Source of the DNA: Lacisediminihabitans sp.
Lineage (GTDB): Bacteria; Actinomycetota; Actinomycetes; Actinomycetales; Microbacteriaceae
DNA: 64,000 bases
NCBI GenBank assembly: GCA_046597035.1
Contig: JBKJLH010000191.1
Coordinates: 5,790-69,789 of the forward strand
Direction: 5' to 3'
Shown: positions 47,311 through 52,721 of the stretch, piece after piece
How positions within the stretch are numbered: position 1 is the first letter of the stretch
How the letters are laid out: each line of letters starts with the position of its first letter
The notes under the pieces: generated by a model
Database searches by the model: none
Seen by the model: the letters and a program-made list of their open reading frames with translations, nothing else
What the model was told of the DNA's origin: nothing
Made by a program: the position numbers and the translations under genes

Positions 47311-47383
47311 AACACGCCAAGTGCAGGAGCCGGATGTTGCACGGGCGCGAGCCGACCCTGCGAATGTAACTAATCTAGTCGCT

Positions 47384-48535
47384 ATGAACTCCGTGCTGCT
47401 GGTGCCGCTCGCGCTGGCTTTCGGCGTCGTCGTCGGCGCCGGCGTCACGGCGGTGCTTGTCGTCTCCGCCCGACGCGGACATCGCGCGGTGCAGGTCGTG
47501 AGCACCGCCGTTCCGGATGGCGTCGACCAGGTGATCGAGGCTCTCGAGTCCGCCGGAGTCGTCCTCGACCCCTCCAATACGGTTGTGAAGGCGAGCCCGG
47601 GTGCGATGGCCTTCGGGCTGGTCTGGAACCAGGCGCTGGTGCATCCGGAACTCGTGACCATCGTGGATCGCGTTCGCCGTTTCGGTGAGCCGATCACGCA
47701 GGAATTGGAGCTCGCACGCGGGCCCTTCGGCGACGCCAACATTTATCTGTCCGTGCGGGCCGCCCGCCTCGGTGGACGCTACATCCTGCTTCTCGCGGAG
47801 GACCGCACCGAGTCTTACCGGCTCGATGAGGTGCGGCGGGATTTCGTCGCAAACATCAGCCACGAGCTCAAGACTCCGATCGGTGCGGTCGGTCTCCTCG
47901 CCGAGGCGCTGCAGGCGGCCTCCGACGAACCGGATCAGGTGCGTCGCTTCGCCAAACGCCTCAGTAAGGAGGCGGATCGCCTCGCTCGCATCACACGGGA
48001 GATCATCGAGCTTTCCCGGTTGCAGGCGGCGGATGCTCTCACCAGTCCGCAGGTCGTGGAGATCGACCACGTGGTCGCCCTTGCCATCGACCAGAATCGC
48101 GTCGCAGCGGAGTCTGGCCGGGTCACCATCGTGAGCGGTGGAGATTCGGGCGCCGAGGTCTACGGTGACGAGCCGTTGCTGGCGGTCGCTCTCCACAACC
48201 TCATCGCCAACGCCATCCAGTATTCACCCGCAGGTTCGCGGGTTGGGGTTGGGGTGAGTAACGCGGACGGTATCGTCGAGGTCGCGGTCACAGACCAGGG
48301 CATCGGCATCCCCGACGAGGAACTCGCCCGCGTATTCGAGCGCTTCTTTCGCATCGATCCGGCCCGCTCCCGCCACACCGGCGGATCCGGGCTCGGACTC
48401 AGCATCGTCAAGCACGTCGTGCAGAACCATGGCGGCGATATCCGCGTCTGGTCCCAGCCCGGCAACGGTTCGACCTTCACCATCCGCCTGCCCGGGGCAT
48501 CCCATGCCGCGGCGGCATCATTGAAAGAGGCCTGA
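47384..48535 (+). CDS. senX3: Sensor histidine kinase SenX3
   Basis: SHELKTP H-box, N/G1/F/G2 boxes; gpmA-phoU-senX3-regX3 synteny. Confidence 0.9.
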   Translation: MNSVLLVPLALAFGVVVGAGVTAVLVVSARRGHRAVQVVSTAVPDGVDQVIEALESAGVVLDPSNTVVKASPGAMAFGLVWNQALVHPELVTIVDRVRRFGEPITQELELARGPFGDANIYLSVRAARLGGRYILLLAEDRTESYRLDEVRRDFVANISHELKTPIGAVGLLAEALQAASDEPDQVRRFAKRLSKEADRLARITREIIELSRLQAADALTSPQVVEIDHVVALAIDQNRVAAESGRVTIVSGGDSGAEVYGDEPLLAVALHNLIANAIQYSPAGSRVGVGVSNADGIVEVAVTDQGIGIPDEELARVFERFFRIDPARSRHTGGSGLGLSIVKHVVQNHGGDIRVWSQPGNGSTFTIRLPGASHAAAASLKEA

Positions 48536-48536
48536 G

Positions 48537-49214
48537 TTGCGCATTCTTATCGTCGAAGACGAACCCTCCCTGAGCGAACCGCTTGCCTTCCTGCTCGGTC
48601 GGGAGGGCTACGACACCATGATCGCCGCCGACGGCATCGCGGCGCTCTCGGAGTTCGACCGCAACGGCACCGACCTGGTGCTGCTCGACCTCATGCTGCC
48701 CGGTATCGCCGGTACCGAGGTGTGCCGCGAAATCCGCACCCGGTCGCAGGTACCCATCATCATGCTCACCGCCAAGGACAGCGAAGTGGATGTCGTTGTC
48801 GGGCTCGAGCTCGGCGCCGACGACTACGTCACAAAGCCCTATTCCACCCGCGAACTGCTTGCCCGCATCCGCGCGGTCATGCGCCGTCGTATCGAGACCG
48901 ATGAAGACGATACTGCGATCCTCGAGTCCGGCGATGTACGCATGGACGTCGACCGACACACGGTCGCGGTGCGCGGTGTCGATACGGCCATGCCGCTCAA
49001 GGAATATGAGCTGCTCGAGGTGCTCCTGCGCAACTCCGGACGGGTGCTCACCCGAGGTCAGCTGATCGACCGGGTCTGGGGCTCCGACTATTTCGGCGAC
49101 ACCAAGACGCTCGACGTGCACATCAAGCGCATCCGTTCAAAAATCGAGAAGGAGCCGTCAGACCCGCGGATGCTGTTGACCGTGCGAGGGCTGGGCTACC
49201 GCTTCGAACCCTGA
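48537..49214 (+). CDS. regX3: Response regulator RegX3
   Basis: LLDLMLPG, GADDYVTKP, VWGSDYFGDTKTLDVHIKR. Confidence 0.92.
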   Translation: MRILIVEDEPSLSEPLAFLLGREGYDTMIAADGIAALSEFDRNGTDLVLLDLMLPGIAGTEVCREIRTRSQVPIIMLTAKDSEVDVVVGLELGADDYVTKPYSTRELLARIRAVMRRRIETDEDDTAILESGDVRMDVDRHTVAVRGVDTAMPLKEYELLEVLLRNSGRVLTRGQLIDRVWGSDYFGDTKTLDVHIKRIRSKIEKEPSDPRMLLTVRGLGYRFEP

Positions 49215-49236: not shown

Positions 49237-49788
49237 CTACTTGCTCGGGGTCGGGGTCGGAACCGGGATGACCGTCGGATTCGCGGAGGGTGTCGCGGTG
49301 GGCAGCGGCGTTGGCAGCAACTTCGAGTATTCGGAGAGAGACCCGTCGAGCACCGGAACGCGCAACTGTGCTCCGGTCAGCGTGCCGTACTGCACGAAGA
49401 CGGGGAACAGTGAACCGGGCTTCGAATCGATACCGTTGAAGAGCAGCTGGCGAGTGTCTGAGGATCCGAAGGTCTTCACCTCTCCCGCGTCGAGCTGCAC
49501 GCGGGTGTCGACCTTGCCTGGGGCTCCGCTTGCCGTGGTGCCGTCGTACTGGATGAGTACGTTCACCGTTTTACTACCGTCGTTGACGAGACTCACCAGC
49601 AAGCTTGCGACATTGCCGTCTCGGGTGAGAAGAAGCGCGTTGCGTATCTTCACCTGGCCGACGGTCGTGTCGACTCCATCACTCGGGCTGTACTGCTTGA
49701 CCATCTGAGGCGAGAAGAAGCTGCAGCCCGCAGTGGAGAGCAACAGCGAAGCCGCCACTACGACGGTTGCGGCGATGCGGACTCTCAC
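49237..49788 (-). CDS. LpqE-like lipoprotein
   Basis: Lipobox TAG-C, YSPSDG, Pro/Thr tail; typical position next to carD. Confidence 0.7.
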   Translation of the reverse strand: MRVRIAATVVVAASLLLSTAGCSFFSPQMVKQYSPSDGVDTTVGQVKIRNALLLTRDGNVASLLVSLVNDGSKTVNVLIQYDGTTASGAPGKVDTRVQLDAGEVKTFGSSDTRQLLFNGIDSKPGSLFPVFVQYGTLTGAQLRVPVLDGSLSEYSKLLPTPLPTATPSANPTVIPVPTPTPSK

Positions 49789-49947
49789 AGGACCCTCCAA
49801 AACGAAACAAAGACGATGAGATTACGGCACCGGATGACACTCGAAATCCCTGTCAAGGTTAGCCTACGGTTGCGGCCTCGAAGGCCCCGCCCGCGCTGTC
49901 AGAAACGCCCTGTGATAGCGTGGCGCCACTGAAACGGAGTGTCAGCA

Positions 49948-50079
49948 ATGCTTTTCGAGGTCGGCAAGACGGTCGTCTGCCCGCACCATCGTGCGGCGAC
50001 GATAACCGAAGGGAAGACGCGCAGCGTGAAGGACGAAGAGAAGGCCTCGACTGTGCTCGATGAGGTTCTTGCGTCCTGA
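49948..50079 (+). pseudogene. carD: carD remnant (43 codons; in-frame internal deletion)
   Basis: MLFEVGKTVVCPHHRAATITEGKTRSVK fused to DEEKASTVLDEVLAS = CarD N- and C-termini; canonical position before ispD. Confidence 0.85.
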
Positions 50080-51277
50080 CTCCGAACCCGAGGTCGGCAT
50101 CATCGTTGTCGCCGCCGGTAGCGGGTCCCGTCTCGGGCATCCCGATCCCAAAGCCTTCGTCGCGGTCGCCGGCCGTCCGATCCTCGCCCATGCGCTCGAG
50201 GGCGTGTTCGGCAGTACCGAACCGGCCCAGGTCGTGGTGGTGGCCCCCGCGGACTGGATCGACGAAGCACGGGTCCTTGCTGTCGAGGTCGCCGGAGCCG
50301 CGCATGAATCGGTGACGGTCGTCATCGGATCCGACTCGCGGCAGGGTTCCGTTGCAGCGGGCCTCGCCGCCCTTGCGCCAGGTATCCGCATCGCGCTCGT
50401 GCACGACGCGGCGCGATCGTTCACCCCGTCAGCCCAGTTCGACGCGGTGATCGCGGCCGTTCGGCAGACCGGAGCAGGCGTCATCCCTGGTCTCGCGGTC
50501 GCCGACACGATCAAACGGGTGGAGGGCGGGCTTGCGATCGCAACCGTCGACCGATCGCAGCTTGTGGCGGTGCAGACCCCGCAGGGCTTCCCCCGCACGC
50601 TGCTCGCCGCCGCCTACGCGGACGCGAGTGCAGACCACACCGATGACGCGGCCCTCTTCTCCGCCGCCGGGCACGACGTGCGCGTGATCGGCGGCGACGC
50701 GCTCGCGTTCAAGATCACGACGCCGTGGGATCTGCGCCGCGCGGAATCCCTGTTGGCGGGGAATGAGAACGCGGTGAAAGAGTCGGCAACCGAGATCCGC
50801 ACCGGTCTCGGTATCGACGTCCACGCCTTCGATGCCGACAGTCCGCTCTGGCTTGGCGGTGTCTTCTGGCCGGGCGAAGTCGGGCTGGCCGGCCACAGCG
50901 ACGGGGATGCCGTGAGTCACGCTATCTGCGATGCCCTGCTCTCCGCGTGCGGCCTCGGCGACCTCGGATCGAACTTCGGCACGGCAGACCCCCGGTTCGT
51001 GGATGCCCATGGAGAGGTCTTCCTCCGAGCGACGGTCGCGCTCGTGGTGACCGCCGGGTTCGCGATCACCAACGTGTCTGTGCAGGTCGTGGCGAACCAT
51101 CCGAAGATCGGCACCCGCCGGGAGGAGATCGAGGAGCGACTCGGCGCACTCGTCGGCGGGCCGGTGAGCGTGGCGGCGACGACCTCCGACGGGCTCGGAT
51201 TCACGGGACGCGGCGAAGGTATCAGCGCGATCGCAACCTGCCTGCTCGAGCGCATTCGGTCGGGGAGCACTCGATAG
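50060..51277 (+). CDS. ispDF: Bifunctional IspD/IspF (start uncertain)
   Basis: AAGSGSRLG, VHDAAR, QTPQGF; GIDVH, GHSDGDAVSHAICDALL. Confidence 0.93.
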   Translation: MRFLRPDSEPEVGIIVVAAGSGSRLGHPDPKAFVAVAGRPILAHALEGVFGSTEPAQVVVVAPADWIDEARVLAVEVAGAAHESVTVVIGSDSRQGSVAAGLAALAPGIRIALVHDAARSFTPSAQFDAVIAAVRQTGAGVIPGLAVADTIKRVEGGLAIATVDRSQLVAVQTPQGFPRTLLAAAYADASADHTDDAALFSAAGHDVRVIGGDALAFKITTPWDLRRAESLLAGNENAVKESATEIRTGLGIDVHAFDADSPLWLGGVFWPGEVGLAGHSDGDAVSHAICDALLSACGLGDLGSNFGTADPRFVDAHGEVFLRATVALVVTAGFAITNVSVQVVANHPKIGTRREEIEERLGALVGGPVSVAATTSDGLGFTGRGEGISAIATCLLERIRSGSTR

Positions 51278-51287
51278 GCTGGTCAGC

Positions 51288-52721
51288 GTGACTGTGCGCC
51301 TCTATGATTCCCGCTCGCAGGGGCTTCTCGACCTCGTGCCGATCGTCGAAGGCAAGGTCGGCATCTATGTCTGCGGCCCAACAGTGCAGTCTTCGCCCCA
51401 CATCGGTCACCTGCGTTCCGCGCTGGTCTACGACCAGTGGCGACGCTGGCTCTGCTACCGGGGTTACGACGTCACGCTCGTTCGCAATATCACTGACATC
51501 GACGACAAGATCCTCGCAAGCTCAGCCAGCGGCACCTCCGGTGAGCAATGGTGGGCTCTCGCCTACCGCTTCGAGCTCGAGTTCAGCCGCGGCTACGAGA
51601 GCCTCGGTATCCTCGCTCCCACCTACGAACCGCGCGCGACCGCGAGCATCCCGCAGATGCAGCGGCTGATCACCGAGCTGATCGATCGCGGGCATGCCTA
51701 CGCCGCTGATGACTCCTCGGGTGACGTCTACTTCGATGTGGCCTCCTGGCCGGCGTACGGCGAGCTGACCAACCAGAAGCCGGGAGACATGGCTGTGTCG
51801 GCGGAGGCGCCGTCTTCGGATTCGGACCGGGGCAAGCGCGATGCCCGCGACTTCGCCCTGTGGAAGGGGCACAAGCCCGACGAGCCGAGCTCGGCCGCTT
51901 ACCCCTCGCCCTGGGGTGACGGCAGGCCCGGATGGCACATCGAATGCTCCGCGATGTCGCAGCAGTATCTCGGAACGCGATTCGACATCCACGGCGGCGG
52001 TCTCGACCTGCGGTTTCCCCATCATGAAAATGAGCTGGCGCAGTCATCCGCCGCCGGCCACGGGTTCGCGGGCGCGTGGGTGCACAACGGACTGGTGAAT
52101 GTGAACGGACAGAAGATGTCCAAGTCGCTCGGCAACTCGATCTTCGCCGCGGAGTTCCTCGATCAGGCCCGCCCCCTGGTGGTGCGGTACTACCTCGGTT
52201 CGGCGCACTACCGCTCAACGATCGATTATCACGATGGTGCCCTTCTCGAAGCGGAAGCGGCGCTCGATCGTATCGAGGTCTTCCTCGATCGCGCGGCCCG
52301 GCGACTCGAGGGAACCCAGTTCGAGGGCACCGGGGCCGAAACCATCCCCGAAGAATTCTCGGAGGCTATGGATGACGACCTGGCCATTCCACAGGCCATG
52401 GCGGTGCTGCATGAGCAGGTGCGCGCCGGAAACGCGGCCCTCGATGCGGAGGACCTCGGAAGTGCCGCAACCCTGCAGGGCCAGGTGCTGGCGATGACCG
52501 AAGTTCTCGGAATCAACCCGATGGCCGTAGAGTGGCAGACTGCTGCGGATGATCCGGCGAGTGTAGCGCTCGCAATTCTCGTCGAGAAATTGCTCGAGGA
52601 CAGGGACGCGGCACGTAAGGCGCGCGATTTCGTGTCCGCCGATCGCGTTCGCGACGAGCTTGCCGCAGCCGGCATCCAGATCGAAGACACCCCCTCGGGG
52701 TCGCATTGGAGTCTTGACTAA
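51288..52721 (+). CDS. cysS: Cysteinyl-tRNA synthetase
   Basis: [26 protein letters not shown]. Confidence 0.97.

What the first reader, a model, noticed from the sequence alone, without database searches (positions are those of the whole stretch)
49948..50079. carD reduced to a 43-aa remnant at its canonical locus
Seen: the CarD N-terminus is joined in frame to its C-terminal tail at K-DEEK. This fits recombination between the two GAAGAGAAG (EEK) microhomologies, removing roughly 115 of about 160 residues, including the NWSRR tryptophan wedge. Normally conserved residues also differ (E7K, Y11C, G15R relative to the consensus as I recall it), suggesting decay rather than a single assembly slip. 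A TAGCGT -10 and GGAG RBS remain. Established: CarD stabilises open complexes and is essential in mycobacteria. Inference: this lineage has a relocated or replacement carD, or transcribes without it.
Basis: partly seen in the sequence, partly recalled or inferred. Interest (0 to 1): 0.75.

Follow-up and report, generated by a model that had tools for sequence, protein, structure and literature searches.

The report
Eroded carD relic, replaced by paralogue
The 43-codon frame upstream of ispDF is a genuine deletion relic of the normally essential transcription factor gene carD; an old, extremely conserved carD paralogue elsewhere in the genome has very probably taken over its job, so this is gene replacement, not life without CarD.

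Summary
Observation confirmed. Window 49948-50079 (+) is CarD codons 1-28 joined in frame to codons 146-160. The 351-nt deletion lies exactly between two copies of a 10-nt direct repeat (CGAAGAGAAG) that intact relatives still carry 351 nt apart.

It is not an assembly slip: a different species (G044) has the same junction.

The genome is not CarD-less. An intact 163-aa CarD with both Pfam domains and the NWSRR tryptophan lies on another contig (G000:C124:7783-8271). It belongs to a distinct "extra-locus" paralogue clade of Microbacteriaceae and is under very strong purifying selection (dN/dS 0-0.02).

Within the genus, all 8 genomes with an eroded canonical carD carry this paralogue. There are at least five different deletion histories. 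None of the 9 genomes that lack type A (7 with only the canonical copy, 2 with a different extra copy) has an eroded one. Three or four other genera of the family also keep only a paralogue-type CarD.

All 8 relics keep the carD promoter, start codon and an open frame ending at or in the ispDF start; seven keep GGAG intact. The initiation region is 3-5 times more conserved than neutral flanks. This suggests, but does not prove, a translated leader for essential ispDF. A control showed that in-frame deletions are largely expected from codon periodicity.

Moderately interesting.

The parts
49913..49921 (+). Former carD promoter -10 region (TG-n-TAGCGT). It is now the only plausible promoter for ispDF.
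   Evidence: The TGTGATAA block is conserved at this position across the aligned genus genomes, including 6 of 8 relic-bearing ones (G042 reads GCTGATAG, G014 TGTGGTAA). The upstream gene is divergent, so ispDF must be transcribed from this roughly 150-nt region. The sigma-70 consensus scan found nothing, so the assignment rests on conservation and inference.
49936..49939 (+). GGAG ribosome-binding site of the relic ORF.
   Evidence: It lies 8 nt upstream of the ATG. It is kept in 7 of 8 relic genomes; G009 reads GGGG. The GGAG-to-ATG stretch differs at 0.14 per site between relic genomes, against 0.40-0.54 in neighbouring intergenic DNA.
49948..50079 (+). 43-codon relic of canonical carD (type B), open from the native ATG to the native stop.
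49948..50031 (+). The segment derived from CarD codons 1-28 (the start of the RNAP-interacting domain). It carries E7K, Y11C, G15R and V22G; residue 26, variable among relatives, is S.
   Evidence: Alignment to 20 intact genus copies.
50034..50043 (+). The single surviving copy of the 10-nt direct repeat CGAAGAGAAG, which marks the deletion junction.
   Evidence: The repeat is present twice, 351 nt apart, in intact carD of G022, G011 and G041. The deletion size is 351 nt. G044 has the same junction.
50032..50079 (+). The segment derived from CarD codons 146-160 plus the stop. It contains the ispDF start region.
   Evidence: The last 14 residues are identical in G000, G044, G019 and intact G012. 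The tail differs at 0.18 per site among relic genomes, against 0.48 just after the stop.
50060..51277 (+). The ispD-ispF fusion gene. Its ATG (50060) or its only alternative in-frame start, TTG (50069), lies inside the relic ORF, 10-20 nt before the relic's stop.
   Evidence: Pfam IspD 4.8e-57 and YgbB 1.2e-51. There is no other in-frame start before the conserved VVAAGSG motif.
51288..52721 (+). cysS, the downstream member of the conserved carD-ispDF-cysS neighbourhood.
   Evidence: ORF list. The neighbourhood is described in PMC2919716.
49237..49800 (-). The divergent 187-aa gene (lipoprotein-like N-terminus, no Pfam match) that bounds the locus upstream.
   Evidence: It is syntenic in every genus genome whose locus was recovered (29) and in other genera.
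47321..49214 (+). The senX3-regX3-like two-component pair, used as the synteny anchor of the canonical locus.

Best explanation
The 43-codon frame is the relic of the ancestral, syntenic carD (type B).

(1) Shown: a 351-nt deletion between two 10-nt direct repeats removed codons 29-145. That is most of the RNAP-interacting domain and nearly all of the C-terminal DNA-binding domain, including the tryptophan wedge. The deletion occurred in a common ancestor of G000 and G044.

(2) Shown: the genome keeps a full-length CarD of a separate, older paralogue clade (type A) at a syntenic MFS-SDR-carD-DUF427-acyl-CoA-synthetase locus on contig C124. This copy is under extreme purifying selection.

(3) Inferred: type A made the canonical copy redundant. 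This is supported by the pattern of loss. All 8 eroded canonical copies in the genus occur in genomes that carry type A, and none occurs in the 9 genomes that lack type A (7 with only the canonical copy, 2 with a different extra copy).

(4) Inferred: what survives of the old gene is what essential ispDF needs. That is the promoter, the 5' leader with RBS and ATG, and the last roughly 14 codons, which contain the ispDF start.

The relic is probably still translated as a short leader ORF that terminates 10-20 nt past the ispDF start, giving translational coupling or protection from polarity. The peptide itself probably has no function.
For: An intact second CarD exists. It has the CarD_C domain at 2.1e-34 and the RID domain at 1.5e-12. 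It aligns over residues 1-161 with M. tuberculosis CarD 4kbm at E 1.3e-65, with NWSRR kept.

The canonical locus regX3-lipoprotein-carD-ispDF was verified in 29 genus genomes: 21 intact (20 of 160 aa, G041 165 aa) and 8 eroded. It was also verified in nine other genera and in part in other families of the order.

The tree splits canonical copies from extra-locus copies with 100/100 support. Type A of the genus is monophyletic at 99/95.

Type A dN/dS is 0-0.02; G000 and G044 differ at 56 nt and 0 aa. Intact type B is at 0.03-0.11. The G000 and G044 relics compare at about 0.74.

The eroded copies in G000/G044, G019, G010, G001/G009, G014 and G042 have different, non-nested boundaries.

All 8 keep the ATG and an open frame reaching the ispDF start; 7 keep GGAG (G009 reads GGGG). 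In G042 the carD ATG runs straight into ispDF.

Among relic genomes the initiation region differs at 0.11-0.14 per site, against 0.40-0.54 in neutral flanks.

Natural controls exist. G111 has lost carD and ispDF together and no relic remains. G060 has a 39-codon leader behind a carD-like 5' UTR, ending in an ATGA overlap with ispDF.

carD-ispD is an operon in M. smegmatis (PMC8820732).
Against: The in-frame pattern is weak evidence for selection. Exact direct repeats of 6 nt or more inside intact carD are in phase 78-86% of the time, and 4-5 nt repeats 60-70%. Eight in-frame indels therefore have a joint chance of roughly 0.01-0.1, not (1/3)^8.

The absence of stop codons in the relics is also not striking: P is 0.16-0.78 per relic.

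G068 lost carD without leaving any leader and evolved its own ispDF start, so a leader is not obligatory.

The first six carD codons are also nearly invariant at synonymous sites in intact genes. The conserved 5' element could therefore act at the RNA level rather than through translation.

No expression data, reads or experiments were available. That type A performs CarD's function rests on sequence only.
Confidence: 0.8

Rival explanations
1. Purely neutral relic. The canonical carD became redundant and is simply being deleted. Only the promoter and the ispDF start region are constrained. Translation of the relic frame is irrelevant, and its open, in-frame state is a by-product of in-phase microhomology and of recency.
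For: In-phase bias of repeats is 60-86%. The no-stop simulations are not significant. The relic peptide evolves at dN/dS about 1. G068 manages without any leader.
Against: GGAG, the ATG and codons 2-6 serve only initiation of the relic frame. Yet they are 3-5 times more conserved than neutral flanks in the 8 genomes where the protein is destroyed. All 8 of 8 keep the ATG. G009's extra 18-nt duplication and 3-nt loss are also in frame. G060 keeps an unrecognisable but open leader with an ATGA overlap.
Confidence: 0.3
2. Assembly or binning artefact. Either the real genome has a full-length carD here, or the C124 copy belongs to a contaminant.
For: The assembly is fragmented: 209 contigs and 2.6% contamination. 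Reads could not be examined.
Against: G044, a separate species assembly, has the same 351-nt deletion and the same junction. In complete relatives (G012, one 3.3-Mb contig) the type A locus and the canonical locus lie on the same chromosome. Genes on C124 are 85-94% identical to those of relatives, like genes on the window's contig. C124 is 63.8% GC against a genome mean of 63.7%.
Confidence: 0.02
3. The 43-aa product is a functional micro-protein, for example an RNAP-binding or CarD-antagonising peptide.
For: The frame is open, has an RBS, and is conserved at both ends.
Against: Residues 7-28 evolve at dN/dS about 1.25 between G000 and G044. Other relics keep quite different pieces: 20, 55, 60, 83 and 111 aa. 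G014 keeps only 6 + 14 residues. Twenty-eight residues cannot form the Tudor-like RID fold (general knowledge of CarD structures). There is no Pfam hit.
Confidence: 0.03
4. The lineage transcribes without any CarD.
For: None remains after the whole-genome search.
Against: A full-length CarD lies on C124. All 121 Microbacteriaceae genomes sampled have at least one CarD.
Confidence: 0.01

Closest known systems
CarD / CdnL of Mycobacterium, Thermus and Myxococcus (RNAP-binding open-complex stabiliser; Pfam PF02559 + PF21095)
   Same: The relic's first 28 and last 15 codons are clearly homologous to CarD, and it sits at the classical carD-ispD(F)-cysS position (PMC2919716, PMC8820732). The C124 paralogue is a full-length CarD that aligns end to end with M. 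tuberculosis CarD.
   Different: The relic lacks 117 of 160 residues, including the tryptophan wedge and the basic DNA-binding helices, so it cannot be a working CarD. The working copy is not the syntenic orthologue. It belongs to a separate paralogue clade only 69% identical to the canonical copy.
Paralogous gene displacement after duplication, with loss of the ancestral syntenic copy of an essential gene
   Same: Two paralogues coexist in many genomes (8 in the first draw of the genus, 11 once G043, G045 and G046 are counted, and in several other genera). In sub-lineages only the newer-locus copy survives.
   Different: Here the loss is caught in progress. There are at least five independent deletion histories within one genus, and the relics are constrained by an overlapping essential downstream gene.
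Translationally coupled upstream or leader ORFs in bacterial operons (stop/start overlaps of the ATGA type)
   Same: The relic has its own RBS and ATG and terminates 10-20 nt downstream of the ispDF start. G060 has an exact ATGA overlap. The initiation region is conserved although the protein is dead.
   Different: Coupling is not demonstrated here. The overlap is inherited from the intact carD-ispDF arrangement rather than newly evolved. At least one lineage (G068) dispensed with it.
Microhomology or short-direct-repeat mediated deletion (replication slippage, or RecA-independent recombination)
   Same: One repeat copy remains at the junction, and the repeat spacing in intact relatives equals the deletion length.
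   Different: Nothing unusual. G000 reads GAC where G044 reads GGC just before the repeat, which is a later substitution or an imperfect repeat edge.

Membership tests
CarD/CdnL family - the relic ORF (49948-50079) | Complete N-terminal RNAP-interacting (Tudor-like) domain, PF02559 | tested here: not met
   No Pfam hit at E<=1. Only codons 1-28 of about 60 remain.
CarD/CdnL family - the relic ORF (49948-50079) | C-terminal helical DNA-binding domain with the conserved tryptophan (NWSRR), PF21095 | tested here: not met
   Codons 29-145 are deleted and only the last 15 codons remain.
CarD/CdnL family - the relic ORF (49948-50079) | Descent from carD (sequence homology and conserved genomic position) | tested here: met
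   tblastn E 1.6e-7 within the genome. 38 of 43 residues are identical to the matching parts of intact G012 CarD. The position regX3-lipoprotein-[carD]-ispDF is the same as in 21 intact genus loci.
CarD/CdnL family - the paralogue on G000:C124:7783-8271 | Both Pfam domains above the gathering score, full length, tryptophan wedge present | tested here: met
   PF21095 at 117.8 bits and PF02559 at 47.8 bits. Residues 1-161 align to 4kbm_B with NWSRR conserved.
CarD/CdnL family - the paralogue on G000:C124:7783-8271 | Binds RNAP beta and stabilises open complexes; essential | not testable with these tools
   Only indirect support: dN/dS 0-0.02, and it is the sole CarD in 8 genus genomes and in G060, G068 and G111.
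Short-direct-repeat mediated deletion | The repeat is present at both breakpoints in the undeleted allele, one copy is left at the junction, and spacing equals deletion length | tested here: met
   CGAAGAGAAG at nt 86 and 437 in G022, G011 and G041. The deletion is 351 nt with a single copy at 50034-50043.
Translationally coupled leader ORF | Own RBS and start; stop overlapping or within a few nt of the downstream start | tested here: met
   GGAG at 49936-49939, ATG at 49948, stop at 50077-50079, and the ispDF start at 50060 or 50069.
Translationally coupled leader ORF | The initiation signals of the leader are under selection independent of the peptide | tested here: inconclusive
   The initiation region is 3-5 times more conserved than the flanks and the peptide is at dN/dS about 1. 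However, the in-frame and no-stop patterns are explainable by mutation bias, and the same nucleotides are also invariant in intact genes.
Translationally coupled leader ORF | Downstream translation depends on leader translation | not testable with these tools
   This needs reporter fusions or ribosome profiling.

The most novel reading that the evidence does not exclude
The eroded carD frames are not just debris. In each lineage selection has kept a translated mini-ORF from the carD ATG to the ispDF start. If so, the corpse of an essential transcription-factor gene has been exapted as the leader that drives translation of the essential MEP-pathway gene ispDF. Alongside this, Microbacteriaceae possess a distinct 'CarD2' clade that is functionally competent enough to have replaced canonical CarD at least four times (this genus, G060, G068, G111).
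Probability: 0.4. Interest if true: 0.55.

Novelty: new member of a known kind. Interest (0 to 1): 0.4.

Why it matters
CarD is treated as an essential, single-copy, syntenic gene of Actinobacteria and is under study as a drug target in mycobacteria.

This locus shows that in one actinobacterial family a second CarD lineage exists. It coexists with the canonical copy in many genera and has repeatedly become the only CarD. That offers natural experiments on which CarD features are truly indispensable and on what distinguishes the two paralogues.

The series of eight relics is also a clean natural example of how an overlapping essential downstream gene shapes the way a redundant gene is dismantled.

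For annotation, the practical point is that 'carD missing or truncated next to ispD' in Microbacteriaceae should trigger a search for the extra-locus paralogue. It should not be read as loss of CarD.

Tried and rejected
(1) Naive statistics, rejected. I first took eight in-frame indels as (1/3)^8 evidence for selection. A control on 20 intact genes showed that direct repeats are in phase 60-86% of the time because of codon periodicity, so I dropped that argument to 'suggestive'.

(2) The simulation of stop-codon avoidance in the relics gave only P = 0.16-0.78 per relic. It is not informative.

(3) The sigma-70 consensus scan found no promoter at 49700-50200. The promoter assignment rests on conservation only.

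(4) An MFE fold places the ispDF AUG in a hairpin. No covariation test is possible inside coding sequence, so I did not use it.

(6) Literature searches for CarD paralogues in Microbacteriaceae, and for natural relics kept for translational coupling, found nothing relevant in the held library. Absence there is not proof of novelty.

(7) Earlier scan notes near this place concern other features of the window. None bears on this finding.

(8) The three-protein locus tree leaves the crown of the genus unresolved (supports 38-48%). It groups G001 with G010, although G001 and G009 share two deletions that G010 lacks. I therefore count deletion histories by their boundaries, not by the tree.

(9) G118's sole CarD could not be assigned firmly to either clade.

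Full report
**What is at the coordinates**

The window region reads phoU(-), senX3, regX3, a divergent 187-aa gene with a lipoprotein-like N-terminus (-), then a 43-codon ORF (49948-50079, +), then the ispD-ispF fusion (50060-51277), cysS and a TrmH-family methyltransferase.
- The 43-aa product gives no Pfam hit.
- tblastn with the genome's own intact CarD hits it at aa 1-38 with 58% identity, E 1.6e-7.
- Aligned with intact canonical CarD of the same genus, it is codons 1-28 followed directly by codons 146-160 and the native stop.
- The deletion is 351 nt, or 117 codons.
V22G and G29D are also present, and residue 26 (variable among relatives) reads S.
- TAGCGT with an upstream TG (49913-49921) and GGAG (49936-49939) are present.

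**How the deletion arose, and why it is not an artefact**

- Intact relatives (G022, G011, G041) carry the 10-nt repeat CGAAGAGAAG at nt 86 and nt 437 of carD. The spacing is 351 nt, which equals the deletion.
- G000 keeps one copy at 50034-50043.
- A different species, G044, has the same 43-codon relic. Its junction keeps the upstream flank (AAG GGC) and the downstream flank (GCT TCG) around one repeat copy.
- The event is therefore a classical short-direct-repeat deletion that predates the split of G000 and G044.
- That also argues strongly against an assembly slip.

**The genome is not CarD-less**

A Pfam PF02559 search of the whole assembly finds two loci: Mfd, and an open 163-aa CarD at G000:C124:7783-8271.
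- This CarD has both domains: PF21095 at 2.1e-34 and PF02559 at 1.5e-12.
- It aligns over residues 1-161 with M. tuberculosis CarD (4kbm, E 1.3e-65), including NWSRR.
- Its neighbours are an MFS sugar transporter, an SDR (-), a DUF427 protein (-) and an acyl-CoA synthetase. They are syntenic in G044, G046, G012, G019, G003 and G042.
- In G012 this locus and the canonical locus lie on the same 3.3-Mb contig.
- Contamination is therefore not a credible source for this copy.

**Two CarD lineages**

- *Canonical type B.* In 29 genomes of the genus the locus regX3-lipoprotein-carD-ispDF is conserved. The same holds in nine other genera that have extra copies, and partly in other families of the order.
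- *The tree.* A maximum-likelihood tree separates canonical copies, including those of other families, from all extra-locus copies with 100/100 support. Type A of this genus is monophyletic at 99/95.
- *Identity and names.* Type A is 69% identical to type B of the same genomes. It is 81-94% identical to proteins that their sources name Glaciihabitans, Lacisediminihabitans, Conyzicola and Clavibacter.
- *Origin.* Type A is an old Microbacteriaceae paralogue, not a fresh duplicate.
- *Selection.* Type A evolves at dN/dS 0-0.02; G000 and G044 differ at 56 nucleotides and no amino acid. Intact type B evolves at 0.03-0.11.

**Pattern of loss**

- Seven genomes have only type B, all intact.
- Two (G041, G016) have B plus a different extra copy.
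- Eleven have A and intact B.
- Eight have A and an eroded B: G000 and G044 (43 aa), G019 (83), G010 (111), G001 (55), G009 (60), G014 (20) and G042.
- The boundaries are different and non-nested. This gives at least five deletion histories: G000/G044; G019; G010; G001/G009; G014.
- G042 is too degraded to assign.
- On a tree of the flanking genes, type A maps to one subclade (95% support). G014's loss is clearly separate from those in the crown group.
- The crown of that tree is poorly resolved, so I count events by boundaries.

In a family-wide sample (121 genomes, 95 genera) every genome has a CarD, and about 25 genomes have two or three.
- G060, G068 and G111 have only a paralogue-clade copy. 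G118 possibly does too.
- Replacement of canonical CarD by the paralogue is therefore recurrent in the family.

**Why a relic persists**

The upstream gene is divergent. ispDF can therefore only be transcribed from the roughly 150 nt that contain the old carD promoter.

The ispDF start is the ATG at 50060, or its only in-frame alternative, TTG at 50069. Either lies inside the last codons of carD.

All eight relics keep the ATG and an open frame that ends at the native stop; seven keep GGAG (G009 reads GGGG). In G042 the frame runs straight into ispDF.

| Region, compared among the eight relic genomes | Differences per site |
|---|---|
| GGAG-to-ATG | 0.14 |
| Codons 2-6 | 0.11 |
| Codons 7-20 | 0.31 |
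| Unconstrained intergenic DNA | 0.40-0.54 |
| First 40 nt after the stop | 0.48 |

Between G000 and G044 the peptide evolves at dN/dS about 0.74, and 1.25 for the first 29 codons. The last 14 residues are invariant.

Three natural comparisons help:
- G111 lacks ispDF altogether. There carD and ispDF are both gone and the lipoprotein gene abuts cysS, with no relic.
- G060 keeps a carD-like 5' UTR and a 39-codon unrecognisable leader whose TGA overlaps the ispDF ATG.
- G068 has no leader and a new ispDF start.

I read this as follows. The ends of carD are retained because they are the expression signals of ispDF. The frame is probably still translated as a coupling leader. This is a transitional state that can be resolved by fusion (G042) or by evolving an independent start (G068).

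**Caveat on the in-frame argument**

All eight indels I could define are multiples of three: 351, 231, 147, 153, 162 and 420 nt deletions, an 18-nt duplication and a 3-nt loss.

In this GC-rich gene, however, exact repeats are in phase 60-70% of the time for 4-5 nt and 78-86% for 6-9 nt. The joint probability without selection is therefore about 0.01-0.1. Stop-codon avoidance is likewise unremarkable. Translation of the leader therefore remains an inference, which I put at about 50-60%.

**Comparison with what is known**

carD-ispD is an operon in M. smegmatis (PMC8820732). cdnL/carD is typically next to ispD, ispF and cysS (PMC2919716). I found no paper in the held library describing CarD paralogues in Microbacteriaceae or natural relics kept for coupling.

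The relic fails both defining domain tests of the CarD family and is a pseudogene fragment. The C124 copy passes them.

**Verdict**

The observation and the proposed deletion mechanism are correct. The exciting alternative, life without CarD, is excluded.

What remains is a well-documented case of paralogous displacement of an essential transcription factor. It shows parallel erosion of the ancestral copy under constraint from an overlapping essential gene. Interest is moderate (0.4). I class it as a new member of a known kind.

Noticed in passing
G111 (L094:1707-1925; L093; L095) and G118 (L098): These two Microbacteriaceae genomes have no ispDF orthologue; the best IspD-like hits are 28-35% identical. 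In G111 the canonical locus reads senX3-regX3-lipoprotein(-)-218 nt-cysS. These genera may lack the MEP pathway, perhaps using the mevalonate route, and both keep only a non-canonical CarD.
   Followed up: partly
G146:C1:3139236-3139712, G049:C2:469045-469515, G053:C1:152147-152611, G143:C1:449025-449498, G125:C173:26085-26552: Several genera carry a third, much more divergent CarD-like gene, 40-48% identical to both types, in addition to the canonical one.
   Followed up: no
window 49948-49964 and the homologous positions in genus loci L033-L060: The first six carD codons (ATGCTTTTCGAGGTCGG) are almost invariant at the nucleotide level, synonymous sites included, in both intact and eroded genes. 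This hints at an RNA-level element at the start of the carD/ispDF mRNA.
   Followed up: partly
L050 (G042), between the lipoprotein gene and ispDF: In G042 the carD ATG is fused in frame to ispDF through a stretch that contains a tandem repeat encoding GTNVGTNVG. ispDF may have gained a 28-residue N-terminal extension, or it may start at an internal ATG.
   Followed up: partly
L034 (G001), L035 (G009), L052 (G010): The tree of flanking genes groups G001 with G010 at 100% support. Yet G001 and G009 share two deletions that G010 lacks, and G010 has its own. This suggests recombination at this locus, incomplete lineage sorting, or a chimeric MAG; G010 is 73% complete in 570 contigs.
   Followed up: no
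window 49237-49800 (-) and 49857-49871: The divergent 187-aa gene has no Pfam family but is syntenic across the whole family. A conserved block, AAGTTTAGCCTACGG, lies upstream of it (AAGGTTAGCCTACGG in this window). On its own strand that block reads as a TAAACT -10 box (TAACCT here).
   Followed up: no
L096:3245-3600 (G060): A 39-codon ORF sits behind a GAAAC-n-GGAG-n-AATG leader that resembles the carD 5' UTR. It ends with a TGA that overlaps the ispDF ATG (ATGA). It is probably a carD relic eroded beyond recognition.
   Followed up: partly
window 50060-51277: ispD and ispF are fused into one 405-aa gene in this genus and in most of the family. In other families of the order the matches are split into two pieces.
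   Followed up: no
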